Source: Amoebophrya sp. A120 (Eukaryota > Protista > Dinoflagellata). Taken from it: a stretch of 64,000 bases of DNA. The notes under the pieces are model-generated. The model was not told the origin of the DNA, did not search any database, and saw nothing but the letters and a program-made list of their open reading frames with translations. Below are positions 3,714 to 55,673 of this stretch, in pieces. Positions within the stretch are counted from its first letter, which is position 1; the number at the start of each line of letters is the position of its first letter. Position numbers and translations under genes: made by a program. The DNA is taken from positions 13,590,702-13,654,701 of the forward strand of contig CAJINV010000001.1 in NCBI GenBank assembly GCA_905178155.1. The letters are read 5' to 3'.

Positions 3714-5037
3714 ATGGGCAACACCAACTCGAATTCCACCGGCCTCGTTTTCCCGGAGTCCACCTCGGTGGGGAGACAGGCGGGAGAAGCGGAACTGGAT
3801 GAAGATGACGCATCGACGTCAGGTTCCTCCGAGGAGCAGACGGCATCGAACGAAGAGGAAAATTTTGGTGTGGAAAGACCGCTGGTGCAGTTGCGGCGGT
3901 CCCGAAATACACGGCAAAAGGAAGTACAACAGCCTAGGAGTCCTCGTCCGGAGGGGGAGGGAACCTACTACGACAGCGGCGATGATCAAGCCGGCAGTCA
4001 ACTGTTCGCTGGGGCAAGCACCAACCAAAGCGGTGCGGGCATGGCGACGGCAGCGACGAAGCGGTACCACAGCGGACGACAACAGCACCGTTCGAAGGGA
4101 AAGGGTAAAGGGAAGGAGCACAGCTACAAGTCGGCCCTCAGCGGCGGATCTTCGCCTGTTCCTATCAAGAGTGAAGAACGCAGTTGTACTTTTAGTATCT
4201 CTGTATAATATTCTTGCGTCGCTGCTGCTAGAAAGCTTCATGGGCCGGCGCTGCTCTGCAAAAATATGTATCTATGTGGTCCAATACTTGATGTTGACCA
4301 AAAGTAAAAGAGCAGGGTGTTTCTGGCAAGGGCCCGGCACTGCCACATCAGATGAATAAAATTGTAGATACAAAAGAAGGGCTGGAGTTTTACTCCTGAT
4401 AGGGACCTTCTCAGGAGACTTCGGCGAAGAAGAAGTTGACTCCTCGCCCAGGGACAAGATCCAGAAAAGGGAGGGTGAAGAAAAGCAGCCAACTGTTGCT
4501 GGCGGGGCCTCGCAGGTCTCCACGATGTCCCCCGCCTCTCGCAGTACCGCCTCCCGGGCAACCGCGATGCCGAGACCGGGCTACTCGTCCAGTGCCGGAA
4601 CTAAAGCTACCGACTATTCCTCCACGGGGGGCGCAAAACCTTCTACTATCACGACCGGGCGCTCGCCCTCCGGGGCGGGGTCGTCGAGACATCACTTGGA
4701 GAAACAGCACACCGGCGAACATACCGACGGCTTCTGGTCAAGTTGGAGCCGCCCGATCTACTGGATGGGAAGCTGTCCGATCTCTCTGGGACTGCTCTTC
4801 GTCCTGTGTGGGGGGATCGTCCTCCTGGGCACGTTCATTGGCGTGATGGCATGCATGTGCGCCCCGAGTGAAGAAGCGGAGGAAGAGAAAACCGAGAATC
4901 AGTCGTCCTTTGTGGCGCTGCGTCGTGGGCGGCGCTGGCGCCACGCATCGGGAATCGACCGGCCGAGACTCCGCGGGGCACTGATTACGAAGATGATGAC
5001 TGCATGTTCACTTTACTTGTTTTGTTTTGCACACTAG
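3714..5037 (+). CDS. Family member 3 (MGNTNS start; at least 2 exons; TM; SSFV...PRLRG)
   Basis: The 3714 ORF joins the 4525-frame ORF in frame, either by GT4171..AG4402 or by removing the inverted-repeat insert 4163..4406. TM is ISLGLLFVLCGGIVLLGTFIGVMACMC. Confidence 0.7.
4163..4401. mobile_element. TAT...ATA inverted-repeat intron (introner-like), degenerate
   Basis: Left end tatcaagagtgaagaacgcag...cttttagtatct; reverse complement of right end tatcaggagtaaaactccag...cttttgtatct. 5-bp flanks GTTCC/GGGAC. Removing the insert plus 5 nt keeps the frame. Confidence 0.65.
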
Positions 5038-35243: not shown

Positions 35244-35270
35244 ACAACTTTAAAAAAATTTTTTCTTCAG

Positions 35271-35625: not shown

Positions 35626-36194
35626 TGTGTGCCAATCTCATCGTGAATTTCAAAAATTTTTTTCATCTTGTAGAAACACTTGATTCAACAAGAACGGAAA
35701 ATAGATAGACAAAAACACAGACGACAGAGGACCACGACAGCACGATTGTTCTTCTTTCGTTTTGATCACAATCTGTGCAAGGGCACCGGTTCTTTCAGTA
35801 CTTTGTTGCGTCTTTTCCAATAGTCAGTGTCATTTTGATTTCGTCGTCCGATCCCGCTAACGTCGATTCCAATAAGCTTCTCACACAGTTTCACAGATGT
35901 CGTATACACATGTTTGGTTTGTGAGTGGGCGCAGGTGGCCTCACGAGCGAATATGTTATTTTCAGAAACTGGAGAGAATTGAGCGTAATTTCATGCGCAA
36001 ACTGAGGGGATGCTCAGATGAGATTTTATGTGAAATACAATCAAACTGGCTACAAAAAAATGCGAACCTCCTCTCCACGTCCTCCGCGGACGCACATGAA
36101 GGCCTAGCGGCAGCATGCGCAGACGCAAAATGTCATTTATCTAGGTTTCGGATTTTTGATCTGATCGAAAATGAACGAAAAATGAGATAAAAAG

Positions 36195-39100
36195 ATGCGT
36201 TCGTCACCTCTCGTTATGTTTTGCGGGGTGCAAATAGGCCGCTCAGCGGCATCGCTGCGCGCACAAGATGCTCAGGACAGGAGAGCGACAAAAAGACACA
36301 AATCGCAGCACGCCTCCTTCTGCGGAGCCCAAATAGGAAAGCCACCAAAAGTAGCGGAGCCGGCACAAGAAATTCATCACTGGATAGCACAAGAAAATGC
36401 GGCATCCAACATGAAAGATAAGCCGAGGCCATGCAAGAAGGATCTGCAGAAAGAATATGACGCGTGCTGGGACGACCCCTCGCTGATCTTTCCACAGGAA
36501 GCAGTGGTGACATGGGACAGCTACCTACCGCAGCCGGGAAAAGCGCCACGAAGCCACCAGTGCGACATCGACACCGTAGACCTGTCACGCCTGTTTACAT
36601 GCGGGAATGAGTTCGGCGACCCGTTTAATTTCGCGCCGTACTCCCCCTTCAAAAATGAAGACTACGAGAAGGCGGGTGCACCTCTGACACGAGCAGCAGT
36701 TAGAAAACTGCTGCAAGACCAAGAGGGCCCGAACGACAGGTGGCGCAAAGCAGAGGACGATCAGGCTTTCGCGGGTCTAACGATAAATCCAGAAGAATGC
36801 GTACGGTTTGGACTACAGCCAGAAGTTTTGCTGAAAGCCTGCACGGGGATAAAGTTCCAACAGATCGCAGAGCACCTGGACCCGATAGTATGCGAGAATT
36901 ACCCGGCGGCCAAGCAGAACCCGGAAGTCTACAATAACGAGTTCAAGCGCTTCTTCGAGTGCAAAAAGATCATCCTATACGATGTGAAATCAGAAAAGAA
37001 CGACAAAGGCGAAGATGTGGAAGTGTGCGACTACCCCAGCGACTTGACGTGCGTGCCAGGAAATCTGCTGTTCCAACGCGACGACAAGATTAGGGTAATC
37101 AGTGACTACAGCAGCGAGTGGGCCCTGATAAACCAGTCCATTTTTTCCACCGAGGTAAACTACAAGACCTACTGGGATATGTTTCTGCTGCTGAAGCCGA
37201 ACTCAGTCGGGAGTGGTATCGACTTCATGGACTCCTTCGGCCACTGGTTGGTGCACGCACGTTTTCGCCGCATGCTTGGAATAAATCTCGAAGGGACAGT
37301 ACAAAAAGGAGGACATTTGTACTGTCCTTTTGGCATCGGTATCTCGTGAAAACATTTTTTAACGGATCAGCGAAAATTCTCACAGGCTCCACTATAAACC
37401 TAGCCAGATGCATGTGGTTTTTTGTCGTGCATCAATCCGAAAAAACTGTTTTCACACGCATACCGAGACCAGCACCGGGTGAGAACGATTTCTTCGTGAA
37501 AGCTTTTCTCGCTGCAGCGAAGAGAAACGGAGTATCGTCGCCAGCACTCGACTACGTAGACGACGTGAGATTTATAACCAGCCCGGTCGACGGCAAACCA
37601 CACTTCGATAAAGCCAAGTTCGACCTAGACCGAGCAGTGTACATCCTAACCCGCATGGGCATCAAGATTCACCACAAGGAATCAAAGCTAATACAGCCGT
37701 CAACAATTTTCCCCTGGCTGGGAAACGTTTTCAACACCGACCCGAGGTCGTACAACATCATGCTCGAGCCTAAAAGACGCAAAGAATACCTGCAAGCAGT
37801 GCGAGACTTCAAGCAGGCAGGCAGAAACAAAGAAGCGAAAGCCAGAGACGTAGCCAGCATCAAAGGAAAATTAGGTTCCTGCGCGCTTATCCACCCACGC
37901 GGGCCATTGGACGAGCTGAACAAGTTGCTGGTAGCTTCAACAGCACCGAAGCAGTGGGCGAAGCTGAACAGGCAGTTCAACCCGCCAGTCGAAATCTCGG
38001 ACGCCGCTTTCGAAGACTTGGATTTGTGGGAAGACCTGCTGTCGACCGACCACACAAGACAAATGTTCTTCAACGGCGAGCAGACTTTTATTTGGTCTCA
38101 CGAAGTCTTGGCCTTCGGAAAAGCCTTTTTCGCGTCTTTGGGACCAGAGCTGTTTATCGGTGTCTACATGGACGCTGCAAAAGGCGACATCGAGAACTGC
38201 GAAGACCGAAGAAACAGAGGCTGGGGCGGCACCGTAGCGGAGCACTATTTCCATGGACTCTTCGACGAAAAAGTGCCAGGTAGTTTTGATTTGTTTTTTC
38301 TGGTTTTCACATATACTTGTTGATGTTACATCAAATCTACAAGAATAAAATTCCTTCTATTTCCCACCATCAGATACTGCCAGCATCAACGAGTTAGAGG
38401 CCTTGGCAGTTCAGCACGTGCTAGACGCAGCCAGGGAGAAGTTAGGAGACGCATATTTTCACCAGAAAATAATCCTGATCAAGACCGACAATCCAACGGC
38501 AAAAAGAACCACGAACAAGGGCTCCGCGGCTACGCCGATTCTCAAGAACGTGACGAAAAGCTTGACATCCTTCGCATCCAGCACAGGCACAGAAATAGTC
38601 GCGGCCAAGATCGCGGGCGAAGTGAACATAATCGCCGACGCCCTGTCACGCCACGAAGAGCATTTATTTGCGTTTAAAGATCCCTTTCCGGATAAAACTT
38701 TGTGTAAGCGCTCGTGGAACATTGTGATGCGCGAGATACCGGGTCTGAATGTCGACTGTTTTGCAGATCACCACAACTGGCGTTTCCCGGAATACTACAC
38801 GGCACACAGTCATCCGTTCGATAACTTCGACTTGTTTTATAACAAGCGTTCCTGGTGGTTCCCACCAATACACCTCGCAATAGTAACAGCTCGCTTCCTC
38901 GCCAACTTCCAAAAAATTCCAGTAGCTCAAAGACCACGTTTTGCACTGATGCTGCCGATGATCAACCCCATGTTCTACGACCTGGCGTCCAACTTCGTAC
39001 AGTTCTGCACGTACAAGAAGGGTTCCAAGGTATTTTGCACAGCGCAGTGCCCACTCGTATACGGAGCACACGAAGATTGGACGTTGTTGTTGTCTGTGCA

Positions 39101-39707
39101 TCTACACGACTGGGGTAGAGACAGAGAAAAAACAGAAATAGGCGCACAAGTTACAAAAATTTTACGCAAGCCTTACTTTCGTCAATTTCCCGAGCTCGCT
39201 AGGAGCAAGTTAAGAATTATGGATATTTGTTATGCGCGCGAGAGGTTTATAGTCCACATCACATGCTGCGTCCCGTGCAAACCCAGCGGTTTGGCGGCAC
39301 AGTTGTTTGCAAAATATCCGAAGGCAAACCGCTATGGAGAGCCGTTTTCTGCGAAACCACTAGGAGGATATGAAGTGATAGGAAAAATTGTCAATATTTA
39401 CGCTATGGTCTGGCCAGGAAAACCCGTTCTCAACAGAGTCCCACGACCATCAGATGTAGTACCGGTAGAAGCATTTACAGCAGATGACTCAGCAGAAGCT
39501 CGCCTTTTTCGTTTCAAAAACGCGTTGTACGACTTTATTTTGTCAATCATAGACGAGACAGAATCAGTAGCAATCCCGCTCAGAATTGGACAAGGCTCAT
39601 GCGCAGGCGGACAAAAAGAATACTGCGCAGTGATCGCCAAAGCCATCGACGTCGCATTTCGAAACAATGTTGACGTCAGTATTTATGAGAAGCCGTGCGC
39701 TCTATAA
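36195..39707 (+). CDS. Reverse transcriptase - RNase H - DIRS-type methyltransferase-like - macrodomain-like polyprotein
   Basis: RT: KIRVISD, GIDFMDSFGHW, CPFGIGPAPGEND (after insert removal), YVDD, WLG. RNase H: YMDAA..GWGG, INELEALAV, TDN, NIIADALSR. MT: VDCFAD..WWFPP. Macro-like tail. Introns at 37340..37467 (non-canonical) and 38280..38373 (GT-AG). Confidence 0.88.
37340..37462. mobile_element. TAT...ATA inverted-repeat intron inside the RT PFG motif
   Basis: Left end tatctcgtgaaaacattttttaacggat; reverse complement of right end tatgcgtgtgaaaacagttttttcggat. Flanks ATCGG/CCGAG. Removing the insert plus 5 nt gives PFGIGPAPGEND. Confidence 0.8.
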
Positions 39708-40249
39708 TATCAAACACACACATCTTACCTTGGGATACTCTGGAATTAGCGCCCAGACTACATGTTTGTAGCATGTGCTCTGTTCTAGTCCTATCTGGAA
39801 AACTCAGATCACTTCAAGATCAAGACCTCGTGGGTCTCTCGGTCTAGATCGCGTGTGTGTGTGTCGGGTACTGAGCTTGTACGGTCGCTCAGCAAAATAA
39901 TTACGAAACCTTTTCTCTACGACAACAATTTAGATCGTCTTACAGTCACGCGTGAGAGCGTTTGCGATTTGTGTAGAAACATTTTTTTGGATTACCTTTA
40001 GTACACTATTTATTTTCCATTGATACTGATTCCTTTGTTACACAAGACAAAACTGCATTAGCCAACGAGTGCGGAATGAGATGCCACCAGCGGGGAGCAA
40101 AGATCTTTCCTGCTAGCGCTATGGTTTCGAAGATTTTTACGACGTGTCAGGAAAACGCAAATGAAACGGACCAAGACACACCATCCAAGTTATCAGACGC
40201 GTGTTCTTTTCCGGTATACTATGTGACGGCGGCGAGTTCGCGGAATTCT

Positions 40250-41150
40250 TCAGTCAACCCTTGCCGTTCTTCCGATGCATCGACCAGGTCGCGCGGGAGT
40301 TCCGCGGCGGCCCCAAACGACCGGCCTCTGGGGGCTCTAGTGGAGACAGCCAAAAGGGCCGCGCAGATTCGGGGCCGCAGCCTGGTGGAAGTCTACGAGT
40401 GCGCCGGGCAGGTGGCGAAGTCTTCCCGGGTCGATGGTTCGCTACGCCGGGAGCTGCGTCGTGCCCACTCCGCCCCCGGGCGACGCCGCCTACAGGCGGC
40501 AGCGCCGGCGCCGGGGCTTTGCCGCAGCGCGGCCCCCCGGGCAGCCCGCGGGCTTCCCTGTCGCCCCAGGGGCCGCCCACCAGCTGCAGGGATATGGCGC
40601 CACTGCGCGCGCGGCGCGGGGGATGATCGCGGAAAAAGGCTCCCGGAAAGTCCGGGAGGAAGAAGCGCGGGGGCGCGGCAAGCAGCTGGCTAACACTGAG
40701 CGCGGGCGGGGCGCCCCCGCGTGCGCTGCCGTTTGCCGGGGAGAATGCCCGGGCGGGCGGGAACTTGCCGCGCCGCCCCCGGTGTGGGGTGCGCCGCTAT
40801 TCGGGGCCTGCCGTACGCCGGGGCGGCGGCAGTCTGCCGGCCCCGCGCGCCGGCTTGCGCGCCCGCTTGTTGTTGCGGGCGGCTGCGGCGTGCTGCGCGG
40901 CGCCCATGTGGGCGACAGGCCCCGGGCACTGTAGGCGCGCCGCGCTCGTAGCGCCGCCGCGCTTGGGGATCGGGCCGGGCCCCTCCCTTGTCGTGCAGCG
41001 GGCGCTCCTGGTCTGTAGTGCGGCGCCTTTGCGGCCGGCCGGCCTCGGTGATTTCGGGCGCGCGCACTTCGTTGGCGTCGTCGCACTTGTTCCGCCGACG
41101 GCCAATTGCCTGCCCGCTGAAATAGCTCGGCGCCGCCGTGGGGCCTCATT
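40250..41150. other. Very GC-rich island, no credible protein
   Basis: Abrupt shift to very high GC. The overlapping R/A/P/G ORFs on both strands are typical of stop-codon depletion. Confidence 0.55.
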
Positions 41151-41663
41151 TGTAAGTAACTGCTTCAAGGGTTTTGGGCCAGTACAAAGTGCGGCCGTTC
41201 TCGAGTATGGCGCAGCTGGCAAGTTTGGCTGCTTTGCGCAAAGCGGTGTCCCTGTTCCAAATTTCAAGCAAGTAGCGAGCTGATCCGTCTGAGTATACAT
41301 AGATCGTGTTGCGTTTCGGCAGTTTTTCCCAACCGATCTTGCCTAGGCCATTTGCTGAAGATCATGTGCTGTCGTTTACTGAACTCGCGATCTTGTAATG
41401 TTATTTGCCTCTTGTGACCGGTTACAGTATCGAAAAAGCGATGGGCGTTCTGAAACCGAGAAATCAAAGCAGGACATACGACGTTTTCGCACTAGCATAT
41501 CCTCTATGCACGCTGCTTTTTCTACGAATTTTTACCTCTCATCTGAAGAACCGCTCGTGTCTTCCTTTCTCGACGCACCTCCTTTTGTTTCTAATCCTAT
41601 TGACGCCGGTTACCTGGCAGCACTGACATTGTTCTCTATCAAACCATTCGTTTGAGGGCATTC

Positions 41664-44600
41664 ATGTCGATCAGAATAAACAATGGCGAATCCGACGGGA
41701 GCACCGGCAAGACCGTCTCTGTAGATGAGGTACTTCGCCTCTTGCAAGCTCCGGTCAACGACGCAACCCTCGATGAGGCGCAAAGCCATGGAGCAAGTGA
41801 TCGGGATAGCAAACCGGCGCCGGCAGCAACCACAAGCGCTTCGCGAGTTCTCGGCGAAGGACGAGAAGCAGACGTCCTAGCCAGTGTTTTACAGAACTAC
41901 GCCGCTGAGCTCGTTCCACCGCTCCCGGAAGACGAGATCTCCGAGGCGCATTTCACAAGTTTTCATCTCGGACGCGGGAGTTCCGACCACATTGCCGTTT
42001 TGGCCGACTACGCGAACCCACATGACACGCCCGGTCTCGCACTAAAATGGAGTCGTCGCGTGTTTGGCGCAGAACCCCTCGCCGAGTGGCAGCAGAATTT
42101 TTGTGCGAAGGACGAAGCTGTGTTCGTGCACGCCATCGCAAATCAGACATCGGACTGGTTTGCGCGGTTCTCGGGGGCGAAGGACCTGAATGCTGCAGTC
42201 AAGACGGTGTTCGGCGCCAGTGTGTCGGGGGTCGAAAACAAGCAAGCCGACTTGGTCACGATAGCAGCAGGAAGCGACGGACCAGAGAAAAGTGAACATC
42301 GCGCTGTACTTCGCTACGGCCATCGCTGCATGGCCGTCCTTTTCGCAACTCATTTGGTGAAAGCGAACAGCGGAGGCCTGGTAGTCGTTTTGGATGCGGA
42401 AGAGGTGGGCCAAAGGTCTCACCAGGAGCGGCGAAGCAGAGAGCTTGCAACCGTCCTCAGCTGTCTCTTCGAGGAAGTGAATCAGTATTCGGAAGCTATC
42501 GTCTGTTTGCGGCGGCGCGATGCTGACGGCGCGCAACGAGAGCTTCTGAAAGCCTTTCGCGCCGCATCAGAGAAACTAGCAGCTGGCGTTGAGCGCACCT
42601 TTCTTTTTGGCGACGAGGCGGTATTGAAAAGTTCTAACTCTGATGGCACTGTACGCAGCTTGCTGGAAAATCGCACCCACGCAAGAACTAATGACGAAAG
42701 GGAGGAGGAACCAGCAGCGAAGCGACGGCGTGTGGAGACGCTGAAGCATCGAAAGGTTTGTGAGGAGTACATAGGAACGCCGCAGACCCCTGGGGCGGGC
42801 CATTTCGAGTTGAGCATACCATCGCTGACGTCAGGTAGCAGAGCCAATTCCGAGGTCATTCTTTCTTTGCGAGCCGACACGCTAGCGAAGTCCGCAGAGC
42901 AGGATGTCGTTGGTGTTTCTCATCAGCCCGGCTTCGAAATGGAGCGGAACGCCGCGGAATACGGGTCGCTTATGGTTGCTGTGAGCGCCGGGAACTTCGT
43001 AACAGGCGGGGAGCGAAAGGTAGAAGGAATAAAAAAGTGGCTTGCGAGCACAGAAGCGCTGGAGAGGAACAGGCACAGCAGTTCGAGGGACTCAGGGCGA
43101 GATGAACATGTTTCTGACAAGTTTGGATTCGCTTGCCGCTTCTCATCGATGGTCCCCGAATCTTCCCTCTCGAAATTCTCGGATGCCCTATCTTCGCTTG
43201 CGTCTCGCCAGGGGGAAGCTACGGAGCTAGATTCGCACTGGCACCACAATTCCACTTTCCGTCAAGAGGGACCGTGGCGAGCATTCCTGCCGTCAATGCC
43301 AGATCTTTCCAACAGCGAGGTGCGCACGAACCTTGGTTTTTTGCAGAAATTGTTCGCGGGGCGAAGAAGTGTGCCGACGCGAGATGAAGGGAAAAAGTGC
43401 GCTGTCATCGCTATGGTCGACGCCACACCCGCACCGCAAGCCCCGAAAGAGACTTCATCGCCACTGCGGTTCAACTTGAGTAGAACACTCCGCGTAGGGG
43501 TTTTGCGGTCACCGCACGACGCGACGACATCGATGGAGCTTTTAGCCACCACTATCCTGGAAGGGCTGCAATTATTACAAAGTGCTGCAGGTGAAGATCC
43601 ACCAATGTCCACGTGCAGTTTAGTCCTCCGATTTCGGAGCGCGCTGCTTACTCGAACTGAAGTCTCACTCATGCTTCTCGTGGCCGCTTGCTTCCGCAAG
43701 ATCACTATCCAAGCGAGCGACTGCGCACCGCCTTTCGCCTTTGGTGGAGGTGATCGGTTTTTAGTCGCAACGGGCGGAAACCATTCGCGGATACAAAAAT
43801 TGGCTGAGACGCTTGCGAAAAATCCCGTCGCGATTCGCGACCCACGGGGCCCATGTATCCATCCGGTCTACGTGTCAACAGGAAGCAGTTTCAGAAAGTT
43901 CATGCGGGACCGAAACGAGGCGTTTTTCGCACGGGAAGTGGCTTTATTAGAGCAGTATCTGTCGAGGACACAAGTGCCTACGGGTTTCACTTCTCAAACC
44001 AGTCCAAGCCCAAACGCAGATCATAATGAAGCGCATTCTCGCCACCTTCCGGTCGATTTTCTCGCGACCACGCTAGCGATTCGAGACTTGTCGTATTTCT
44101 TGAAGGACGAGCCAACATCATCGTCAAGTCACCAAGCAGCAGTAGACGCCACCACGCGGTGGAGGTCACCAGCTATTTACTACCTCTACTTCGGGACCTT
44201 CGACCCCTTTCACGAGAATCACGTTGCGATGGTTAAGCACGTGCTGTCACGCGGTGACGGCGTTCTGCTGTTTCCCAACGAGGACACGAACCCGCTGAAG
44301 AGAACAAAAGTCACCCTCGCCGACAGGATTGAGATGCTCTCTTGTCGAGTGGGAGAATTTGCAATAGAGGAAAAAAACAACGAAATCGCAGCCGCGGTTG
44401 CCAGCAAGCGTCTGCGAGTGGTGCAGCTCACTACGTCTTCCAGCAGCGTCGACAAGGATTTTTCAGTATCATCGACAAGTTCTTACGACCCTGAACTCGC
44501 ACAGTTAGGGACGAATTGGCCTGGGCGGTTGAAGTGCCGCTCAGTCCTCGAGCGGCAACTGAGTCTGGAAACCGGACGCGTCGTCCGTGTTGGCTTCATG

Positions 44601-46370
44601 CTCGGGGAGGACTCTTGGCGTTCGAGTTTGAAACGCGCAGATCAGCACAAGCAGTCCGGCGTGTTTGCTTTGTTGAAAGACAAGAGAATCGAGGAGGCAC
44701 AAGATCACCTGGCGAAAATACCGCGGCCGGATGTGGATAGGAAATTGATTCTCGTGTTCCCCCGATCGGTGGAAGAAGCCCAAAAAGCCGAAAAAGCCGC
44801 GGGTCGGGAAGAGGTGGACCGGTTTTGGGTCGGGTCAAATTTCGCGCATCTCGTCGGCTATGCCCGGGACTACGAAGACCCAACGCAGGAGTTGTCTTCG
44901 ACGAAGCTGCGGGCACAGCTCGCGGAGAAGAGCGGACGAATACCGGCGAATCACCTCCACCCTTCGCTCGTGGAATTCGCGCGACAACGAGGACTATACG
45001 AGGAGGTTTCAACTATAACACCAGCGGGGCATAATTCGCTTGTTGAAGATTTTCGTGAGCAATCGCGCACCGCAGTCGTCGGGAATAAAGCAGCAAATGC
45101 GCATCATCTTCAAGCAATCTCGCAAGAACAGCAAGCTGGAAATAATGATCAAGTCACTCCTGCGTTTCCACAACCTTCCTCTTCCTCGCGCGTTCGCGAG
45201 CACTACGACGAGCGCACCGTGCAGGCAGAGGCGCAAAACCGCAAGAATTCGGCTTCCGTCCAGTCGCGGAACACGCACAACTTGTTGAAAAGCTGTGTCA
45301 TCTTGCGCTACCTGGAGCTCGTGCGGAAGCTTCTGCCGAGCGACAAAAAGTTTTTATCGCTACTGGACTTGGGGATCGGGAAGGGCGGCGACCTCGCAAA
45401 GTACCGCAATGCGGGGGTGCTGCAGCTGTTCGGCGTAGATATTTCGGGAAAAAGTCTTCAGGAAGCACTACGGCGGGCACGGGAAGAGGCCGCGAAGGAT
45501 CAGCGGGCCAGGCACGGGGAGCTGAAGAAACTGGCTGATACGAAGCTGGAGTTACTGCTCCTCGAAGGCAATTCCTTTTCGCCTGGGGCGGAACTGCGGT
45601 TCGATTCCTACGATTTCGGCACGAGCAGGGTGGCAGCGACGAAGAACCAAGTTTGGTTTCACGCCGTGGCTTCCATGTTCGCGTGCCACTACGCGTTCAG
45701 CTCCGAAGCCAGCGTCCGCGCGCTGCTGAAGGCGGTTTCCTCCCGGCTTTGCGAAAAAGGGGTCTTCTTCGGCGTCATCCCCGACATGGACAGTATCGTG
45801 GAACACTGCCAGAAGTCGTCGGACGAGAACAAAGACACTACTAGCTCCGCACCGTGCTGGAAAACCGACTGCTTTTCCGTCGAGTTCTTGGACAAAACAG
45901 CGTGGAGCGCGGCACAAAGGTTGGGCAACCAGAATAAAGAACAGGGCAAAAATATTAATGCAGCAGGAAGCGAACAACAACTCGAGGTGGATCCCTTCGG
46001 CCACGAGTACTCCTTTTCTTTCGTCGACGGTGTGGAGCAGCTTTCCGAGCCGCTGGTCTACTGGCCTAAGTTCGCGGAATTGGCATCGGAGTATGGCTTA
46101 GAGGTGGTGCAGAAGCAGCGACTGTCGGATCTGGTGCCGCTGCGAGCAAACGCAACAGAACCGTCCACGATCAGCAGTGGCGGCGACACGGAGCGACTAA
46201 TTCGGCAGTACCATTATAAGGGCGGGCTAAACCCGGTCATCGGAGATCTGTACTGCTGCTTCGCGTTTCGAAAGACACAAAGCACTGTGATGACGCTGAG
46301 AACTTTGCAAGAAGCGATCGCAAGCATGGTGGACACGCACAAGATTCATGAAAAAGTAGAAAGCATGTGA
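41664..46370 (+). CDS. Multidomain protein: 2 degenerate CMTR-like folds, HIGH-family (NMNAT-like) nucleotidyltransferase, mRNA cap guanine-N7 methyltransferase
   Basis: Intronless ORF of about 1570 aa. NTase: YFGTFDPFHENH...LGED...LSSTKLR. RNMT: VREHYD, RNTHNLLKS, LDLGIGKGGDLAKY, GVDIS, MFACHYAFSSE, YSFSF..VE..EPLVYW. The CMTR-like resemblance is weak. Confidence 0.8.
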   Translation: MSIRINNGESDGSTGKTVSVDEVLRLLQAPVNDATLDEAQSHGASDRDSKPAPAATTSASRVLGEGREADVLASVLQNYAAELVPPLPEDEISEAHFTSFHLGRGSSDHIAVLADYANPHDTPGLALKWSRRVFGAEPLAEWQQNFCAKDEAVFVHAIANQTSDWFARFSGAKDLNAAVKTVFGASVSGVENKQADLVTIAAGSDGPEKSEHRAVLRYGHRCMAVLFATHLVKANSGGLVVVLDAEEVGQRSHQERRSRELATVLSCLFEEVNQYSEAIVCLRRRDADGAQRELLKAFRAASEKLAAGVERTFLFGDEAVLKSSNSDGTVRSLLENRTHARTNDEREEEPAAKRRRVETLKHRKVCEEYIGTPQTPGAGHFELSIPSLTSGSRANSEVILSLRADTLAKSAEQDVVGVSHQPGFEMERNAAEYGSLMVAVSAGNFVTGGERKVEGIKKWLASTEALERNRHSSSRDSGRDEHVSDKFGFACRFSSMVPESSLSKFSDALSSLASRQGEATELDSHWHHNSTFRQEGPWRAFLPSMPDLSNSEVRTNLGFLQKLFAGRRSVPTRDEGKKCAVIAMVDATPAPQAPKETSSPLRFNLSRTLRVGVLRSPHDATTSMELLATTILEGLQLLQSAAGEDPPMSTCSLVLRFRSALLTRTEVSLMLLVAACFRKITIQASDCAPPFAFGGGDRFLVATGGNHSRIQKLAETLAKNPVAIRDPRGPCIHPVYVSTGSSFRKFMRDRNEAFFAREVALLEQYLSRTQVPTGFTSQTSPSPNADHNEAHSRHLPVDFLATTLAIRDLSYFLKDEPTSSSSHQAAVDATTRWRSPAIYYLYFGTFDPFHENHVAMVKHVLSRGDGVLLFPNEDTNPLKRTKVTLADRIEMLSCRVGEFAIEEKNNEIAAAVASKRLRVVQLTTSSSSVDKDFSVSSTSSYDPELAQLGTNWPGRLKCRSVLERQLSLETGRVVRVGFMLGEDSWRSSLKRADQHKQSGVFALLKDKRIEEAQDHLAKIPRPDVDRKLILVFPRSVEEAQKAEKAAGREEVDRFWVGSNFAHLVGYARDYEDPTQELSSTKLRAQLAEKSGRIPANHLHPSLVEFARQRGLYEEVSTITPAGHNSLVEDFREQSRTAVVGNKAANAHHLQAISQEQQAGNNDQVTPAFPQPSSSSRVREHYDERTVQAEAQNRKNSASVQSRNTHNLLKSCVILRYLELVRKLLPSDKKFLSLLDLGIGKGGDLAKYRNAGVLQLFGVDISGKSLQEALRRAREEAAKDQRARHGELKKLADTKLELLLLEGNSFSPGAELRFDSYDFGTSRVAATKNQVWFHAVASMFACHYAFSSEASVRALLKAVSSRLCEKGVFFGVIPDMDSIVEHCQKSSDENKDTTSSAPCWKTDCFSVEFLDKTAWSAAQRLGNQNKEQGKNINAAGSEQQLEVDPFGHEYSFSFVDGVEQLSEPLVYWPKFAELASEYGLEVVQKQRLSDLVPLRANATEPSTISSGGDTERLIRQYHYKGGLNPVIGDLYCCFAFRKTQSTVMTLRTLQEAIASMVDTHKIHEKVESM

Positions 46371-46896
46371 TAGACCTTTTTTCTCACCGAGAGGTTTTTA
46401 CATAACGACGAGACGCGACAATCACGACTTACTTTGGTTGATGGCAAGGGGCCCCGAACCTGCATAATCTTTGTGAGGGATCTCACAACTGCAATTGAGT
46501 GTTCGGAGATGAAAAAGGATCAGTTTATTTGTTTGTGCCCGCGAGATCTGTCTAGATCCACGTATGTATATGCTGAAGCCTTCGACTTCCATACAGTAAC
46601 CCGAGACTTTTCGTGAATACATTTGGCAGTCGAAGTAGATGATCTGTCTTTGACGGCACATTTTTTCGGTTTTATTTCTGATTGGTCGCTTCTAATACCT
46701 TCGGGCCGCTTGATAAGTTTTCGAAAACTATCTTCTGCTTTCAAACTTAACGTTGAATCCTTCACACTACCACTCCACCTACACTCCATCCTTATTTACT
46801 TGCCGGAAACTGAGCATGAGGCTGCTCGCTCTGCACTCCTCCTGCATCTCTACTTCTGCTAATATGAGGTAACAAACCTTGAACTAATTTCTTGCC

Positions 46897-49800
46897 ATGG
46901 CGACAGCCCGGCAGCTGTACGCGGTCTCGTGCGAATGTCCGCACGGGTTGCGGATCGAGGTGGACTGGCAGCCGGGCGACGACGTGACGGCAAGTTTGTT
47001 CATCGACCACTTGCTGGTTTGCCAGCGACAAAACCCGTTTTCCACGAGCAGCAGTGGCAAATGGATGCATTTCCCGGTGCGCGTTCGGGATTTGCCGCTC
47101 ACAGCGCGCATAAATTTTCAGGTGGTACGCGAGAACGGGGGCATCTACGAGACGGTTTTGCATTTGTTTCAACCGGACGCAGTGCTGAAACAAGGGCGGC
47201 AGTTGCTAATCCTGCGCGACCCGTTGGAGTTGGCCATAGCCGAAGAGCAGGACGAGGTTGATGAAAGCAATGGTGACAGCACCGAGACGGCTGATATAAT
47301 TAGAGTGAGGTAACAAACCAAATCTGGAACTTCGCGGTTGAGTTCTCATCCGGCCGGCCGGCCGGATGAGAACTCAACCACGTCACCGGCGGAATCGATC
47401 CGGCCGCCCGGCCGGCCCAGTCGTCTTCTCCCCTCCCTCAACCGGTGTGGACCCACTCTCACTCTGCTCCCCCGCTGTCCCGCCCGAGCCGCGTTTTATT
47501 TACTATGCAAAAAGCCCCTGTTGTCATGCAAAAGCAGCGGAAAGCGCCGAAACCGAGAAAAACAGACGCTAATAGTAATTTATTACTCCTTTATTTGCTT
47601 TTCACACCACCAGGCAGGGCACTACTCCCAGTTCCGCGCTGTAGTGTTGTTTTGCTATGCAAAAAGCCCGTCTCTTGTCATGCAAAAGCAGCGGAAAGTG
47701 CCGAAACCGAGAAAAACAGATCATATGTTGCTTCTTCTTCAACTGCTACGACTACTACTGGGCGCTGCTACGTACAACTACTGCTGGGTGCTGCAGTACA
47801 CACTTACTACAACTTGGTTGGTCGGTGGTTGGTTACTTGGTTGTTGGTCGGTGGTTGGCGTGCCGTCGCGATTCGAGAAGCCTAAGTGCAAGGCTTTTGC
47901 GTGTGGCACTCACGAGAAGGAGAGCGCGCTCCTATTTTTGGAAGCAATACGAGAAGAAAAAGCACAAAAGTGAGTAAGTAACTTTCTTTATCGTGTCGGA
48001 TCCTCTAGAGGGATCCTCATCCTGCTCTGGCCAGTTTTAAATTGCAACTGGAAGACCCTCTTCATTTTTGATCAGAATTAGATCCGCATCCTGGCGCTGG
48101 CTGGCATTGATCATTTACGATCTTGCGCACGCTTACATGGTCGATACAGAGGGCGCGCTTCGTCTGCCGCGGAAGGTTGCGACTTGTCCCTGCGGGTTGC
48201 GAGTCTGGTTTAACTCGCAACCAAGTAACCAGTAGTAGTTGTACGTAGCAGCGCCCAGTAGTAGTTGTAGGAGTTGAAGTAGAAGCGACGTATGATCTGC
48301 TTTTCTCGGTTTCGGCACTTTCCGCTGCTTTTGTATGACAAAAGAGGGGCGTTTTGCATAGCAAAACAACACTACAGCGCGGAAGCGGGAGTAGTGCCCT
48401 GCCTGGTGGTGTGAAAAGCAAATAAAGGAGTAATGAATTACTATTAGCATCTGTTTTTCTCGGTTTCGGCGCTTTCCGCTGCTTTTGCATGACAAAAGTG
48501 GGGCTTTTTGCATAGTAAAAACGCGGCTCGGGCGGGACAGCGGGGGAGCAGAGTGACAGTGGGTCCACACCGGTTGAGGGAGGGGAGAAGACGACTGGGC
48601 CGGCCGGGCGGCCGGATCGATTCCGCCGGTGACGTGGTTGAGTTCTCATCCGGCCGGCCGGCCGGATGAGAACTCAACCGCGAAGTTCCAGATTTGGTTT
48701 GTTACCTCACTCTTACAGTTTCTTCGCCCACTGCAGAGGCAGAACAGGAGTTGCTGAATTGGGACAAGTTACTGGATCTCGCGGACCGTGGACTCCTCGC
48801 GGAAGGCGGCGGCTTTGCGCGTGAGCACATCCAGAATCTCGCGGACGATGCTTTGCATCGGCTGGGAAAGGAGGTGCTGACGGTCCACTTACCGTGTTTC
48901 ACGTACCCGGTCATCTGGGGCGAAACCACGTACGCGGATTCTGTGGCGGTGCGACACATGTACGCAACCAGCCCCAACGCGCCCCCGGTGCTGCTTGCGG
49001 GGGCGGATGAAGCGGTCCCTTGGACGACGAGCTCTCAAGACGGAGATGATGACGACGCTGAAAATGTTGAACCCTGCATCAACAGCGGCGAGTTGTCACG
49101 TGCAGAAAGAGGGGGCAGTACGAACCCAAAAAATAGCATCACGCCTTCCAGCTCCAAAAGCACGGCGGTTTCGCTGATGGACGTGTTGTCGCAAACGTGG
49201 TATCCCGACACAGGCGTGGATGCACACAGCGGGCTTGGCAGGTCGCACTTTGTCGTGCTCGTGGATCACGAGCTGGAAAGCAATTTCGAACATCCCGCGC
49301 ACCTCAAGTACCTCAAACTTCAAAAGGGCGAGGGTGGGGAGAAGGAACAGAGTCAGGTATTGTAAAATGAATGTAGACTGATGTTAGAAACAAATTCATG
49401 GATCCACCATTTAAGATGAGAATTCGGGGGGTAGTTCGTTGGGTGTCGCAAGATGAAGAACTCACATTGTAAATAGACTCTCCTTTTCAAATACCCCAGG
49501 GCGTCCTCCGTCCGAACGGGGAGGAACTCACCCGGTTGAACGAGCTGGTCCGGCGGCCAAAACGGACGTACAGTGTGGAGGAGAAGTTGTTGCTGTACAA
49601 GTTTCGGCACTCGCTGATGGACAAAAAGGAGGCCCTGGTGAAGTTTTTGCTCGTGGTCGACTGGCTGGACGCGGCGGAGAAGAAGCACGCGCTCGAACTG
49701 ATGTCGCAGTGGCAGGCCATCGACACGGATGACGCGCTAGCGCTGTTGAGCAAGGATTTCCGGGGCGTCGCCGAAGTGCGCCGGTACGCGGTGGACCGGC

Positions 49801-52565
49801 TGGAAAACGCGTCGCAGGAAGAGCTGCTCGGGTATTTGCTCCAGCTGGTGCAGGCGCTGCGGTACGCGCCGGGCAACCGCGGCGCGTCCGGAGAGAACGA
49901 CCCGTCGTCCGAAGTTGCGGAAGGGGTCGCAAAAGACGCGTTCGACAATAGCGGGGAGGCGGACCCATTACTGGTGTTTTTGATACACCGAGCGCAGAGG
50001 AACGTGGTAAGCGAGGGTAGTAGTTTTGCATACTGCATAGAAAGCAGGATCTTCATGTCTGTATAAGAGCCTCACTTGAGAAATTGCTTAAGGATTCACT
50101 CTCTACTACTTGTATCTGCAGCCCGGTTTTGTACTTGTGACGTGGCAGCTATCAGACAGGAAGAAGTGACGAGCTCGCCCTGCGTAAGTATTGACTTCAT
50201 AATTTCAGCACTTTCATTCATTCCTTCTTTCAGGTTCTCGCCACCTACTTCCACTGGTTTCTGATCGCCGAAATCGAAGCGAGCGACAGCGGGCAATTTC
50301 GGGAGGGTGAGGCCGCGCTGTTCAACGCGTACATCTTCGTGAAGGCGCGGCAGCAGCTGCTGGACTCCCTGGAGGAGAACCAGCCGGCGTTCGCGAAGAT
50401 CATCACGGACCAGATCACCTTCCGGCGGAAGCTGCTCTGGGCCATGCGGATCAGCAAGGCGCAGAAGCGGCAGAACATCGAGCTGAAGATCGCGAAGTTC
50501 CAGGACGCGCTGTCGGGCAAGCAGGTCCCGGACCCGGACCTGGGGGACCGGATGGTCTCCAAGCAGTTCCAAGTGCTGGATCTGCCCATGATCGTGGACC
50601 CCACCAAGCGGCTGGTGCGGATCATCCCCTCGAAGTGTTTCCTGATCAAGTCTGCCATGTACCCGGCAGTTTTGCATTGCGAGGTCAAGGTATGACAGTG
50701 CACAACCCCCCCTCCCCCTCTTTGTCATGCAAAAACGCAAACTCAGCTGCTACCTTATGGCACCGCGTGCATGACAAATTCCGGAACTCCAAACAGTACT
50801 ACACTCGGCGCATGAACTTGTCATGCACAGGGTCCACCTGTACTGGTGTTTGTAATGCTGTTGATGCCATACAAATGAGGGGGAGGGAGAGTTGTGCACT
50901 CTCATACAAGGACGAGAACGAAATCGTGTCCCTGCGGAAGTTATCAAATGCAAAAATGTCTGGGTCTGGAAACTTGTGATGCTAAAATGTGAATGGTGGG
51001 CGCACTGCAATACGCAGCCAAGCATGACAAATTTTTGAGCTGCTCTTGTGTTTCGTTTTCCGCATGGCAGCCTGCGTTTCTGCGTGACAGACAAGAGGCC
51101 CTTTTCCTGCTCCTGCATCAGACTTTCTCGAGTCATGCCAGACAAGCATGACATTCTTCCAGACCCAGACATTTTTGCATTTGATAGAAGTACATGTTCA
51201 AAGAGGGCGACGACCTGCGACAGGACCAGCTGGTGCTGCAGATGATCATTCTGATGGACTCGCTGCTGAAGAAGTACGGTCTGGACCTCCGGCTCACGCC
51301 CTACCAAGTGATTGCCTGCTCTACTGTAGACGGCTTCATCGAATTTGTTCCCGACGCGCAAAATTTGTCCGCGGTTCTGGCGGAGAACAACAACGACCTG
51401 TGGGGCTATTTCAAGTCCATCTCGGCAGAAAACAATGCGGCAATGCTTTTGAAAACATCAGCTTCGGGTGGTGGAGGTACTACCAAAGGAGCTTCATTGT
51501 GTGGCATTTATACCACATCAACAGCACAGCAAGGCGCTAGTGGAGGCTACTCGACTAGTAAAGAACTCAATGTGACCAACAAACCCTTGTCGTCTACCCT
51601 AAGTTCTGCTACCTCTACTGCTTCACACCAGAGACCAGAGGTAGACCCGGAGATCTTGGACAACTTCGTGCGCAGCTGTGCCGGTTACTGTGTGATCACG
51701 TACATTTTGGGCATCGGGGACCGGCACCTGGATAATCTGATGGTGTCGAAGTCCGGCCAAATGTTTCACATCGATTTTGGTTACATTCTGGGCAATATCC
51801 ACTGCAAAGAAAAATTACATGTCGGGGGCTGGATTATAAACCTATGATGCTGCAGCTCGCTGAATTGTGGATGCTTTTTGCAACACTTGCAGTCGCAGAT
51901 TTTCCTGGAATTATGCAAGACAATTAACAGATACAGAAGCTTTAGTTTTCATTCACAGCACCCAGGCATATTTGCAAAGCATAAACAAGGACCCGAAGCC
52001 GCTACCGCCGCCGATGAAGTTGTGTCGCGAGATGGTGGACGGCATGGGCGGGAAGGATTCCACGGGGTACCAAACCTTTTTGAGCAACGCGTGCGAAGCC
52101 TTCAAAATTCTGCGGCGGCATCAGAATTTGGTCGTGAATCTACTCTACCTGATGTCCGACGCGGGGATTAAGGACATCTCGCAGTTTGCCCTTTCAAAGC
52201 TGCAGGAGAAATTCATGTATGCAATGCAAAAGAAATATCGTTGATTTGGTAGAGAAGAGTAAGTACGTACCTGCAAGTTGTAGGCTCCTGCATTGAAGAG
52301 AGCGGATGAAGCAATTATGCGATTTTCTAGATGCATCTACTAATAAATCTCTAGCCAGCAGCGCAACTTTTGCCTGTCGGGTCTTGCCAAGATTTGTACT
52401 TACACGACCTTTGCTATTCCTATTGCTTTTGCAATGCATATCACGCCGGAGAAACGAGACGAGGAAGCTGAGAAGGAATTCATTTTGCTCATTAACGAGT
52501 CCGTAAACGCGCTCTTCCCACAGGTCCTCGAGAAACTACACAAATGGGCGGTGTACTGGAGGTAG
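46897..52565 (+). CDS. VPS34: Class III PI3-kinase Vps34 (5' end uncertain)
   Basis: C2 region (VRVRDLP, LKQGRQ), helical domain (LLQLVQALRY), kinase motifs FKEGDDLRQDQ, LGIGDRHLDN and HIDFGYILGKDPKP, and C-terminal LHKWAVYWR*. GT-AG introns at 49357..49499 and 50007..50233, plus five inverted-repeat inserts. Confidence 0.95.
47303..48712. mobile_element. 1.41-kb foldback element with TTA target duplication (PIF/Harbinger-like signature) in the Vps34 ORF
   Basis: Inverted arms of about 485 bp, starting gagtgaggtaacaaacc and ending ggtttgttacctcactc. TTA at 47300..47302 and 48713..48715. Removal with one TTA gives in-frame ETADIITVSSPTAEAE. Confidence 0.88.
50691..50906. mobile_element. TAT...ATA inverted-repeat intron in Vps34
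   Basis: TIR tatga[c/g]agtgcacaac..ccctccccctc. Perfect direct repeat CAAGG at 50686..50690 and 50907..50911. It can also be read as GT50690..AG50910. Confidence 0.9.
50942..51186. mobile_element. TAT...ATA inverted-repeat intron in Vps34 (subfamily A)
   Basis: Perfect 30-bp TIR tatcaaatgcaaaaatgtctgggtctggaa. Perfect direct repeat GAAGT. Removal gives LRKYMFKEGDDLRQD. No GT-AG register for this junction. Confidence 0.92.
51796..51983. mobile_element. TAT...ATA inverted-repeat intron in Vps34 (degenerate subfamily A)
   Basis: Termini tatccactgcaaa and tttgcaaagcata. Flanks GGCAA/AACAA. Removal gives the conserved GYILGKDPKP. Confidence 0.8.
52218..52440. mobile_element. TAT...ATA inverted-repeat intron in Vps34
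   Basis: TIR tatgca[a/t]tgcaaaag. Flanks TCATG/TCACG. Removal gives EKFMPEKRDEEAEKEF...YWR*. Confidence 0.88.
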
Positions 52566-53417: not shown

Positions 53418-55673
53418 ATGATGGAGGGGGATACAAGGCGACCGCAAGTAGAGACAGCAAGCGTGTCGACAACATACTCGGTGGACACCGAATCGACCAG
53501 TGCCTTGGTGTACATATCCAACGGGGAACTTGTCCCCGGCTACGCCGCTACTGCGCTCCTGAAAGAGGAAAGTTGGAGATCACGACTGTCCGCTACAACC
53601 AGCGGTTCAACAAGTGGGAGCAGAGCGAAGGGGGTCGTGTCCGCGTCGCCGACGGACGAAGTAGAAGATGGTGCAGAGGAGCATGCTGATGTTGAACAAG
53701 GATTGCTCTACGCTCCTCCGCAAGCGACAGGAGATAATCATCTACACCGCGGGCGAAGGGGACGCACTAATGCGCAGAAGGTCTTTGACGCAGTGAATGG
53801 CGACGGTGCGGCAGAGCAGCGCGTGAGTGCGTTGGAGAACCTGGATCACAGTCTCCAGTCGGCGGTTCTCGTGTCTTCCATGTATGCGCTGGCCGGGCTG
53901 AAGTGCACTGCTGGGGGGACAAATGTCCAACTGTATGCGGAGGCCTTGTGGATGTGGGGCATCACTTTTGCCTCCTACTCGCTGCAGTTTCTTCTCGTCA
54001 TCGCGGTGCAAATGGAGATCACGGGGAAGTTTGCCGTCGCGTGGAAGCAAAGTCTCCAGGAGCTGATTCCAGCGTTGGGCACAACCACCTCCGAAACCGT
54101 CAAAACTGCCTTCTCAAGCTTTCTCAGCCTGGGATCCGCCGAGCATCTCGCGCAGCAGCCTGGTGCTGGGTTCCACTGGTCAGCGGACAGGCGGTTCCTG
54201 CCCGCAGGGGCCAACAACAACCCGCGGCTTGACCAGCAGCCCGCCAGCAGCAATATCGAGGATCGAGCCAACATGTGGACCACACATCATGCTGCGGCGA
54301 ACATCACAGAGCACCTAACGTACCTTCGCGAAAACCAACCGGACAAATTTAATGAAGTCTGTGACTGGTCCATTTCTTCCGACATTTGGCTGATTCTCTC
54401 CCTGGCCCTAATTCACGTGTTTGCGGTCTGGGCAGAAACTGGGAAGCGGCTGCACATCACTGGCTGGTGCTTTCTCGGATCGCACCGGATTCCGTCTGGC
54501 CGTGCCGCTGACTCGATTGCACTGGAAGCGAGCGTGGAATTTGAAGATGAAGACGCGAAACAGGTGGAGGGCGGACGACGACTTTCGCACAAAATCACGT
54601 CTGTCGACAAGGACCTTATGTTCGTGCTGGTTGGCTGCCCGCGGTGGTTCAAGCTGATCTTTAACCTATTCGTCGTGTTGCCGCAGGTTGTGGTCGCGGC
54701 CTCGACCCTTGCAATCGGTTTGGAGTACTACATCACTGCGACCATTGACAACATCCTAGGTAACGCCGCACTCTTCCTGATTGTTTTACAGGTCGACGAC
54801 TACGTGTATGAGGCCGTGACGACGCCCGAGCGCCAGAAGGAGACAACGGATGCGCGGATTCTGATCTCGCGGCACATGAAAGCGGACAAACTGAACCCTC
54901 GGACCATGTGGGTACGCTCGCTCTTTGCGGTCTTGATTCCCCTTCTGCTGTGGTACTTGATAGTACACATCGTCCCTGCGAGGGTTGGTAGTATCAACTG
55001 CAAAAATGTCTGGGTCTGGAAACTTGTAATGCTAAAAGTGGATGATAGCTGGACTGCAATACGCAGCCAGGCATGACAAATTTTTGAGCTGCTATGTGTT
55101 GCGTATTCCGCATGAGAAACAACGTTTTCACATGACAGATAGGAGACCCTTTTCGTGCCCATGCATCACAGATTCTCGAGTCATGTCAGCCATGCATGAC
55201 AAATGTAAGAATCTTCCAGACCCAGACATTTTTGCAATCCATAGGTAGGACGCCGGAGCAGATCGAAGAAATGATGGACTACTGCAAGACTATCCACTGC
55301 AGATGCGTTGTCGGGGTCTGGAAATTACGTAGCGAGTTCATGCTTGTTTTATCGCACTCCCGGGAATATATAATTCTGTGTTCTTGCATGAGGGGCAATA
55401 AAAGCAGAGCTTTGATGTCTGGCACGCGATGAACGCGCAACTTTTAATGGATGCGCACTACGCATGGGGGGGCGTAGTTCGCGCTCCAAAGACTTGCTGT
55501 CCTCTGCTGTACTCACAAGCGTCCCTGGTTTCATTCGCAAATTTATGCGTGATGCATGTACATGTTTGCAGACCAAGACACATTTGCAGTTGATAAGAAC
55601 GGATCTGAGAACACGGATATTCAACAACACCTGGGACTGGACGGATTTGCTCAATATTCTGGAGGAGTACTGA
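53418..55673 (+). CDS. Multi-pass membrane protein of unknown function
   Basis: About 5 hydrophobic helices, including ILGNAALFLIVLQVDDYVY. Two terminal exons (RTPEQIEEMMDYCK, TDLRTRIF...LEEY*) are recovered by removing two inverted-repeat inserts. Confidence 0.7.
54992..55243. mobile_element. TAT...ATA inverted-repeat intron (subfamily A)
   Basis: TIR core tgcaaaaatgtctgggtctggaa. Perfect direct repeat GGTAG at 54987..54991 and 55244..55248. Colinear with 50942..51186 over its whole length. Confidence 0.92.
55291..55595. mobile_element. TAT...ATA inverted-repeat intron (degenerate subfamily A)
   Basis: Left end tatccactgcagatgcgttgtcggggtctggaaa; reverse complement of right end tatcaactgcaaatgtgtcttggtctgcaaa. 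Flanks AAGAC/AGAAC. Removal restores the frame. Confidence 0.82.

What the first reader, a model, noticed from the sequence alone, without database searches (positions are those of the whole stretch)
37335..51990. Conserved motifs show it is the upstream 5-bp copy that stays in the mRNA
Seen: where the two flanking copies differ, only keeping the upstream one gives the expected protein. In Vps34, GGCAA/AACAA gives ILGKDPKP rather than ILNKDPKP. In the RT, ATCGG/CCGAG gives PFGIGPAPG rather than PFGPRPAPG. Inference: the 5' cut is at or near the base of the stem (before TA) and the 3' cut is 5 nt past it. This staggered geometry leaves the downstream copy as a sequence-free spacer, and looks more like structure-guided endonuclease/ligase splicing than U1/U2AF recognition.
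Basis: partly seen in the sequence, partly recalled or inferred. Interest (0 to 1): 0.72.

Follow-up and report, generated by a model that had tools for sequence, protein, structure and literature searches.

The report
Amoebophrya introners with hidden splice signals
These are already published mini-transposon introns of the plankton parasite Amoebophrya A120; transcript assemblies keep the upstream copy of their 5-base duplication wherever the copies differ, but the cut likely lies one base earlier than proposed, which would give them the same U-A start and the same A seven bases from the end as the parasite's ordinary introns and point to a loosened spliceosome rather than a separate cutting-and-joining enzyme.

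Summary
Observation confirmed. The window is Amoebophrya sp. A120 (the spliced Vps34 equals the annotated protein); the inserts are its published introner elements, with a 5-bp target duplication and TAT…ATA inverted ends. Likely-RNA contigs keep the upstream bases in 3 of 3 mismatched elements covered. RT homologues back PFGIGPAPG. The spacer's length is fixed while its sequence drifts, with no trend to AG.

Indirect evidence favours −1/+4. All nine top published A120 non-canonical end pairs begin N-T, none TA. In that register the elements read N-U-A…A(−7); canonical introns here read GTA (13/13) with A at −7 (11/13), as does the one unambiguous GT–AC junction. So a relaxed spliceosome with a fixed branch-to-cut distance is more likely than an endonuclease/ligase. 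No lariat or slide-free TAT junction was seen. This scan noted the 1+4 register before on other DNA of this genome.

The parts
37335..37339 (+). Upstream copy of target duplication (ATCGG), RT element
   Evidence: sequence; homologue motif needs ATCG from this copy
37340..37462 (+). Old TAT..ATA introner in the RT gene of a DIRS-like retrotransposon; folds end to end
   Evidence: junction not covered by RNA contigs
37463..37467 (+). Downstream copy (CCGAG), only the 5th base shared
   Evidence: sequence
36186..39707 (+). RT-bearing open frames of a DIRS-like element (introner 37340-37462, canonical intron 38280-38373)
   Evidence: ORFs; no direct Pfam hit; of 8 homologues scanned, 2 hit RVT_1 (one above cut-off) and 1 Dam
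46897..52565 (+). Vps34 (class III PI3-kinase) gene, 8 exons
   Evidence: RNA joints; spliced product identical to P0001, Amoebophrya sp. A120; PF00454
47310..48710 (+). 1401-nt GT-AC intron from a long-TIR element (arms 47302-47497/48518-48713); junction without slide; GTA start, A at -7; AG 8 nt further on not used
   Evidence: (3 of 4 runs)
49357..49499 (+). Canonical GT-AG intron, A at -7
50007..50233 (+). Canonical GT-AG intron, C at -7 (exception)
50686..50911 (+). Introner 50691-50906 with perfect CAAGG repeats; reads GT-AG at -1/+4
50937..51191 (+). Introner 50942-51186 with perfect GAAGT repeats; young high-copy family; TT-AG at -1/+4
51791..51988 (+). Introner 51796-51983, GGCAA/AACAA; allowed cuts -3..0; AT-CA at -1/+4
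52213..52445 (+). Introner 52218-52440, TCATG/TCACG; allowed cuts -1 or 0; GT-AC at -1/+4
54987..55248 (+). Introner 54992-55243, perfect GGTAG repeats, in the next gene
55286..55600 (+). Introner 55291-55595, AAGAC/AGAAC; allowed cuts -2..0
4158..4406 (+). Introner 4163-4401, GTTCC/GGGAC; frame fits removal of element + 5
   Evidence: no RNA laid
10871..12371 (+). Three introners (10876-11231, 11317-11621, 11982-12366) in one gene; one open frame after removing each element + 5
   Evidence: no RNA laid
18231..18524 (+). Introner 18236-18519, TGGTT/GTCTC: the only element found in the window with a mismatched 5th base, hence the decisive junction (synonymous, so only RNA can tell)
   Evidence: no RNA laid

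Best explanation
These are MITE-like transposon insertions with a 5-bp target duplication that are missing from likely-RNA contigs, and they are likely excised by a relaxed U2-type spliceosome cutting one base before the TAT and four bases after the ATA. Shown: TAT..ATA elements with 5-bp duplications in either orientation; removal of element + 5 nt; duplicated positions 1-4 kept from the upstream copy; no need for AG or for G at +1. Inferred: the -1/+4 register (about 0.8). In it the element's TA becomes intron U+2/A+3, as in GTA of the host's canonical donors, and the first A of ATA lands at -7, where the canonical introns also carry an A. Predicted: that A is the branch point, the 3' cut is set by a fixed 7-nt distance from it rather than by AG, and the hairpin helps by holding the ends together, not by marking the cut. 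Because the element end is symmetric, it would supply both signals in either orientation, which would let it spread through exons at little cost.
For: (1) RNA joints allow -1 or 0 in 3 of 3 mismatched elements; RT homologues allow -1..+1. (2) Farhat Table S4: all 9 predominant A120 non-canonical pairs start N-T (GT-AC, CT-AG, AT-AG, GT-CG, GT-AA, CT-AC, AT-AT, AT-AC, TT-AG), none TA. All 9 A25 pairs start TT, and A25 inverted repeats start TTA. Both strains thus read N-U-A. (3) 13 canonical introns modelled in the window: GTA 13 of 13, A at -7 in 11 of 13 against 37% A locally, p=6e-4. (4) The only slide-free junction (47310-48710) starts GTA, has A at -7, ends AC and is cut inside the stem. 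(5) Of 161 elements, none has lost the A at -7 at its 3' end. Of 8 with a changed terminal triplet, 7 lie in the orientation that keeps UA and A-7 (p=0.035); the 8th makes a GC start. (6) At the 5th base a coding model prefers the downstream letter in 8 of 11 mismatches (2 upstream, 1 tie). (7) Passages read: A120 has nearly all spliceosomal proteins and U2, U4, U5, U6; the U2 spliceosome is needed for non-GT-AG introns in Fritillaria; fixed branch-to-AG distances occur in Trichomonas, Giardia and Yarrowia.
Against: No TAT element with a slide-free RNA junction was seen, so -1 versus 0 is indirect. How the aligner behind Table S4 placed ambiguous junctions is not known to me. In paralogous loci L077/L078 the downstream 5th base changed, which is silent at 0/+5 but G-to-E at -1/+4. 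The coding-model test has a flat positive control (18 of 34 at positions 1-4; rank test p=0.049). A-7 in the elements may be kept by the transposase rather than by splicing. The predicted donor and branch A pair with each other in the hairpin and must be melted. U1 snRNA was not found. Only 2 of the 13 canonical introns are RNA-confirmed (1 has A-7); the others rest on homology or frame, and some acceptors were picked by eye. Strand calls for the 161 elements come from a small Markov model.
Confidence: 0.6

Rival explanations
1. One reading: a structure-guided endonuclease cuts before TAT and 5 nt past the stem, and a ligase joins the exons (like tRNA or IRE1 splicing), without the spliceosome.
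For: All RNA joints fit 0/+5. In the 47310 intron base +1 pairs with -6, the same stagger. Spacer length is fixed and its sequence free. No U1 found. L077/L078 fits a silent intronic 5th base.
Against: No TA-starting pair among the top A120 pairs. Cut 8 bp inside a stem at a GTA donor. Terminal pairs can be lost (GATG, GACA, CATT ends). Canonical introns share the signals only at -1/+4. No such enzyme was sought or found here.
Confidence: 0.15
2. Register -1/+4, but read by a separate non-spliceosomal machinery that uses hairpin plus a short code, as proposed for Euglena nonconventional introns.
For: Euglena introns have a staggered code (N3 CDG ... CHG N5-6, then purine) and are proposed to use other factors and to circularise. 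The A120 hairpins are strong.
Against: The signals coincide with the host's canonical ones, and hybrids occur (GT-AG at 50690-50910; GT-AC at 47310 and 52217), whereas hybrids are rare in Euglena. Farhat reports 15% of A120 canonical introns with the same repeats.
Confidence: 0.17
3. Spliceosome with register 0/+5, or sliding between -1 and 0.
For: The 5th base is shared in 6 of the 7 mismatched window elements.
Against: In the larger set the 5th base is mismatched most often (12 of 44 mismatches in 161 elements), so it is not protected. U at +1 with A at +2 matches no donor here.
Confidence: 0.05
4. The joints are reverse-transcriptase template-switch artefacts at hairpins flanked by short repeats.
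For: Hairpins plus short direct repeats can give such artefacts (PMC8240250, search listing only). The evidence is contigs of one sample with RNA status guessed.
Against: Joints occur with 1 or 0 shared bases (52216>52445; 47309>48711). They give one full-length, conserved Vps34 frame, and 5 of the 6 RNA-covered elements would shift the frame if kept.
Confidence: 0.03

Closest known systems
Introner elements / non-canonical introns of Amoebophrya sp. A120 (Farhat et al. 2021, PMC7789003)
   Same: Same organism and elements: TAT-starting inverted repeats, 3-5 nt direct repeats, non-GT-AG ends, many families.
   Different: The text and legends call the splice position relative to the hairpin variable or unknown and give no register, branch point or shared code with canonical introns. 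Its figures were not visible to me.
MITE-derived non-canonical introns of Fritillaria borealis (as described in PMC13326754 and PMC11282704)
   Same: Transposon origin with TIR and TSD; non-GT-AG ends; U2 spliceosome reported as necessary.
   Different: There AG-AC/AG-AT prevail, U1 is kept and U2AF is duplicated. Here N-U-A starts, free 3' ends, U1 not found, and spliceosome use is only inferred.
Nonconventional introns of Euglena (Nomura et al. 2025, PMC12501133)
   Same: Terminal stem with staggered cuts and spacers of constrained length; MITE-like origin proposed.
   Different: Other code (CAG/CTG, purine after the cut), circular product, hybrids rare. Here the code overlaps the canonical one.
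Fixed branch-point-to-AG introns of Trichomonas, Giardia and Yarrowia (Irimia and Roy 2008, PMC2483917)
   Same: 3' end anchored at a set distance from the branch A.
   Different: Those keep a full CTAAC motif and AG. Here only an A at -7 is seen, AG is dispensable, and branching is untested.

Membership tests
Amoebophrya A120 introner elements | Host is Amoebophrya A120 | tested here: met
   Spliced Vps34 identical to P0001, named Amoebophrya sp. A120 by its source
Amoebophrya A120 introner elements | Terminal inverted repeat starting TAT | tested here: met
Amoebophrya A120 introner elements | 3-5 nt direct repeat at the boundaries | tested here: met
   99 of 116 family copies have a perfect 5-bp repeat
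Amoebophrya A120 introner elements | Removed from transcripts without GT-AG | tested here: met
   6 of 6 covered elements skipped in likely-RNA contigs; 4 of 6 have no GT-AG reading at any allowed slide
Amoebophrya A120 introner elements | Repeated in families | tested here: met
   127 stretches in one metagenome assembly, scan stopped at its limit; very high depth in DNA run X5
U2-type spliceosomal intron | GT (GC) ... AG ends | tested here: not met
   3 of 161 elements read GT-AG at -1/+4
U2-type spliceosomal intron | U+2 and purine +3 at the donor | tested here: inconclusive
   Met only if the register is -1
U2-type spliceosomal intron | Branch adenosine and lariat | not testable with these tools
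   Candidate A at -7 shared with 11 of 13 canonical introns; no lariat reads
U2-type spliceosomal intron | Dependence on snRNPs | not testable with these tools
   Needs inhibition or knock-down
tRNA-endonuclease or IRE1-type splicing | Conserved local structure at each cut (bulge-helix-bulge or 7-nt loop; recalled, from no call) | tested here: inconclusive
   Folds of 10 elements show long stems but no common bulge or loop at the cuts; no motif search was run
tRNA-endonuclease or IRE1-type splicing | Cyclic-phosphate/5'-OH intermediates and a ligase | not testable with these tools
Euglena nonconventional introns | N3-CDG ... CHG-N5-6 then purine | tested here: not met
   Ends of the 6 RNA-covered elements read TAT..ATA with random flanks; code as given

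The most novel reading that the evidence does not exclude
Amoebophrya runs one spliceosome, without a recognisable U1, on a three-letter code: U+2, A+3 and a branch A exactly 7 nt from the 3' cut. A symmetric TAT..ATA transposon end supplies that code in either orientation, so nearly any such insertion is born as a clean intron. The same code may even splice an 11.8-kb DIRS-like retrotransposon out of a 3' UTR.
Probability: 0.4. Interest if true: 0.8.

Novelty: new variant of a known kind. Interest (0 to 1): 0.5.

Why it matters
About two thirds of A120 introns break the GT-AG rule, and the paper that described them left the cut position and the machinery open. A defined register turns this into direct tests: one predicted branch nucleotide, one predicted base at mismatched repeats, three positions to mutate. 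If right, it shows how little sequence a spliceosome needs and how a transposon end can be pre-adapted to be an intron. It would also fix tens of thousands of intron boundaries in the annotation. The elements themselves are already published; only the code is an addition.

Tried and rejected
No whole genome was held, and the metagenome records could not be opened further, so statistics rest on the window and 127 short loci that may be the same strain. Raw-read runs X9-X11 laid almost nothing (85, 2 and 0 reads, all partial): no test. No RNA holder is on record as RNA; X1-X4 are guessed RNA, one sample. The RT junction had no RNA cover. A word-index protein search with the RT's second exon found nothing. 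My idea that the 5th duplicated base is protected in both copies was rejected (12 of 44 mismatches fall there). G enrichment at the upstream 5th base among mismatches (6 of 12 versus 2 of 12) is not significant (p=0.19). Drift of the spacer toward AG was not seen (A in 3 of 11 at position 3, G in 1 of 6 at position 4). Protein-level tests at 5th-base mismatches failed: 6 of 11 are synonymous, and the other five were not compared with homologues. Corrections: RT offsets were off by one (redone); three intron coordinates were wrong (redone); an apparent stop codon for element 11982 came from a wrong frame and was dropped. Rows dropped before the 161: L050 and L090 (shifted or mis-paired ends) and 7 of 54 other hits (internal repeats or a family with longer ends). 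Two joints with sides of 21-23 nt were treated as repeat noise. The Rab6/DIRS joints do not separate -1 from 0.

Full report
What the window is. The Vps34 gene at 46897-52565, spliced by the joints seen in likely-RNA contigs, gives a 1001-aa protein identical to P0001, named Amoebophrya sp. A120 by its source. P0001 and these contigs may not be independent. The inserts match the introner elements of Farhat et al. 2021 (PMC7789003; I read the abstract, sections 10, 11, 12, 16, 25, 32 and 36, and passages of the supplement's legends and tables; figures were not visible). That paper reports inverted repeats starting TAT, direct repeats of 3-5 nt, nearly all spliceosomal proteins, U2/U4/U5/U6 but no U1, and says the splice position relative to the hairpin is variable or unknown.

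The observation. Both examples are at the stated places. I call a cut just before TAT and 5 nt after ATA 'register 0'. Contigs of runs X1-X4 (guessed RNA, one sample) skip all 6 TAT elements that they cover, each by element + 5 nt. Three have mismatched repeats. GGCAA/AACAA allows registers -3..0 (4 of 4 runs), TCATG/TCACG allows -1 or 0 (4 of 4), AAGAC/AGAAC allows -2..0 (3 of 4). G of ILGKDPKP is present in 113 of 113 homologues whose motif was matched, of 120. The RT junction has no RNA cover. Among 25 phmmer hits, 12 show the motif (11 by pattern, 1 by eye), with G or A and never R at the second place; this allows -1, 0 or +1. So upstream positions 1-4 are kept in 4 of 4 testable cases. 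The 5th base is shared in all four and cannot be assigned.

The repeat and the spacer. One exact-pattern scan gave 127 stretches from one metagenome assembly. Of 116 paired family copies, 99 have a perfect 5-bp repeat, as expected of a target-site duplication. Copies lie in either orientation in genes (16 versus 31 of the 47 with both calls). In 161 elements (114 family, 47 others) 131 are perfect; mismatches by position are 6, 9, 11, 6, 12, with no drift toward AG, and 3 of 161 read GT-AG at -1. Where a coding model could choose, removing element + 5 beat + 4 or + 6 in 77 of 88 cases, including 4 of 4 with three or fewer matching bases.

Which register. (a) Table S4 lists nine predominant A120 non-canonical pairs, all starting N-T and none TA, and nine A25 pairs, all starting TT, where the repeat starts TTA. 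This is what -1 predicts for A120 and makes both strains N-U-A. How the aligner placed ambiguous junctions is not stated. I reached -1 from this table before opening earlier scan notes. I tested it on canonical introns: of 13 modelled in the window, 13 start GTA and 11 have A at -7 (local A 37%, p=6e-4); C at -6 (9 of 13) and A at -4 (10 of 13) are also common. Two are RNA-confirmed (one has the A), four are fixed by Rab6 conservation (all have it), the rest by frame. (c) The only slide-free junction, 47310-48710, starts GTAAC, ends AC with A at -7, lies 8 bp inside a 196-bp stem and passes over an AG 8 nt on; that AG would shift the frame, so decay could hide its use. (d) No element has lost A-7 at its 3' end; 7 of 8 changed terminal triplets lie in the orientation that spares UA and A-7 (p=0.035). 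(e) At 5th-base mismatches the coding model prefers the downstream letter in 8 of 11, but its control is flat (18 of 34), so this is weak. I put -1/+4 at about 0.8.

Mechanism. Shown: insertion with a 5-bp duplication, precise loss of element + 5 nt, no need for G+1 or AG. Inferred: cut at -1/+4. Predicted: the spliceosome reads U+2/A+3, branches at A-7 and cuts 7 nt on; the hairpin only juxtaposes the ends. Fixed branch-to-3'-end distances are documented in Trichomonas, Giardia and Yarrowia (PMC2483917, passages), and spliceosomal removal of transposon-derived non-GT-AG introns in Fritillaria (PMC13326754, passages; PMC11282704, passages). Nothing here shows a lariat or an enzyme, so the overall confidence is 0.6.

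Novelty. The elements are published (also PMC12130899, passages). I found no statement of the register or of a branch point for Amoebophrya in searches; one search (Amoebophrya + intron + branch point) listed one paper, on Entamoeba. Subscription papers cited in those texts (Roy et al. 2023; Henriet et al. 2019) were not seen, and Farhat's Fig. 3 and Figs S19-S23 may show part of this. Earlier notes of this scan reached a 1+4 register on other DNA of the genome; they are unreviewed and not counted as support.

Verdict. Observation right; register probably off by one; mechanism more likely a relaxed spliceosome. Interest 0.5.

Noticed in passing
window 28098-39930: Loose ends of likely-RNA contigs join the Rab6 3' UTR across an 11.8-kb DIRS-like element (gag-like, recombinase-like and RT frames): 28099 to 39928 in X1, X2, X4 and a form 3 nt shorter in X3. 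Both fit one 3' end with A at -7 and two tandem T-T-A starts. A DNA contig of X5 runs from 39901 into the flank without a break at 39928. Spliced retrotransposon or empty allele is not settled; one contig per run.
   Followed up: partly
window 47302-48713: 1.4-kb non-coding element with nested inverted repeats (196 and 278 bp arms, two 50-bp palindromes) spliced as a GT-AC intron, leaving 8 + 3 bases of its repeat in the Vps34 coding sequence.
   Followed up: partly
window 46866-46880: A 14-base copy of that element's end lies in the Vps34 5' UTR and is not spliced (contig X2 runs through it); perhaps a remnant.
   Followed up: no
window 28600-39700: The DIRS-like element carries several canonical GT-AG introns (30092-30175, 32759-32860, 38280-38373, by frame) and an introner, which is odd for an element that moves through RNA.
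   Followed up: partly
window 14530-16170: Another nested inverted-repeat element (72-bp perfect ends, GC-rich core), intergenic.
   Followed up: no
window 41604-46370: Single-exon 1588-codon frame with a cytidylyltransferase-like domain and an mRNA cap guanine-N7 methyltransferase domain: an unusual fusion.
   Followed up: no
window 1663-21940: Tandem run of low-complexity genes, several starting MGN and ending in one hydrophobic helix followed by an S-x-F-L/V...L-R-G-like motif; possibly a membrane-anchored family.
   Followed up: no
L050:501-755 (minus strand): Family element whose downstream repeat overlaps its last base (spacer one base short); coding status unclear.
   Followed up: no
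L002, L037, L073, L126: A 79-122-nt element family whose inverted repeat runs on beyond TAT..ATA and has no 5-bp repeat at that position.
   Followed up: no
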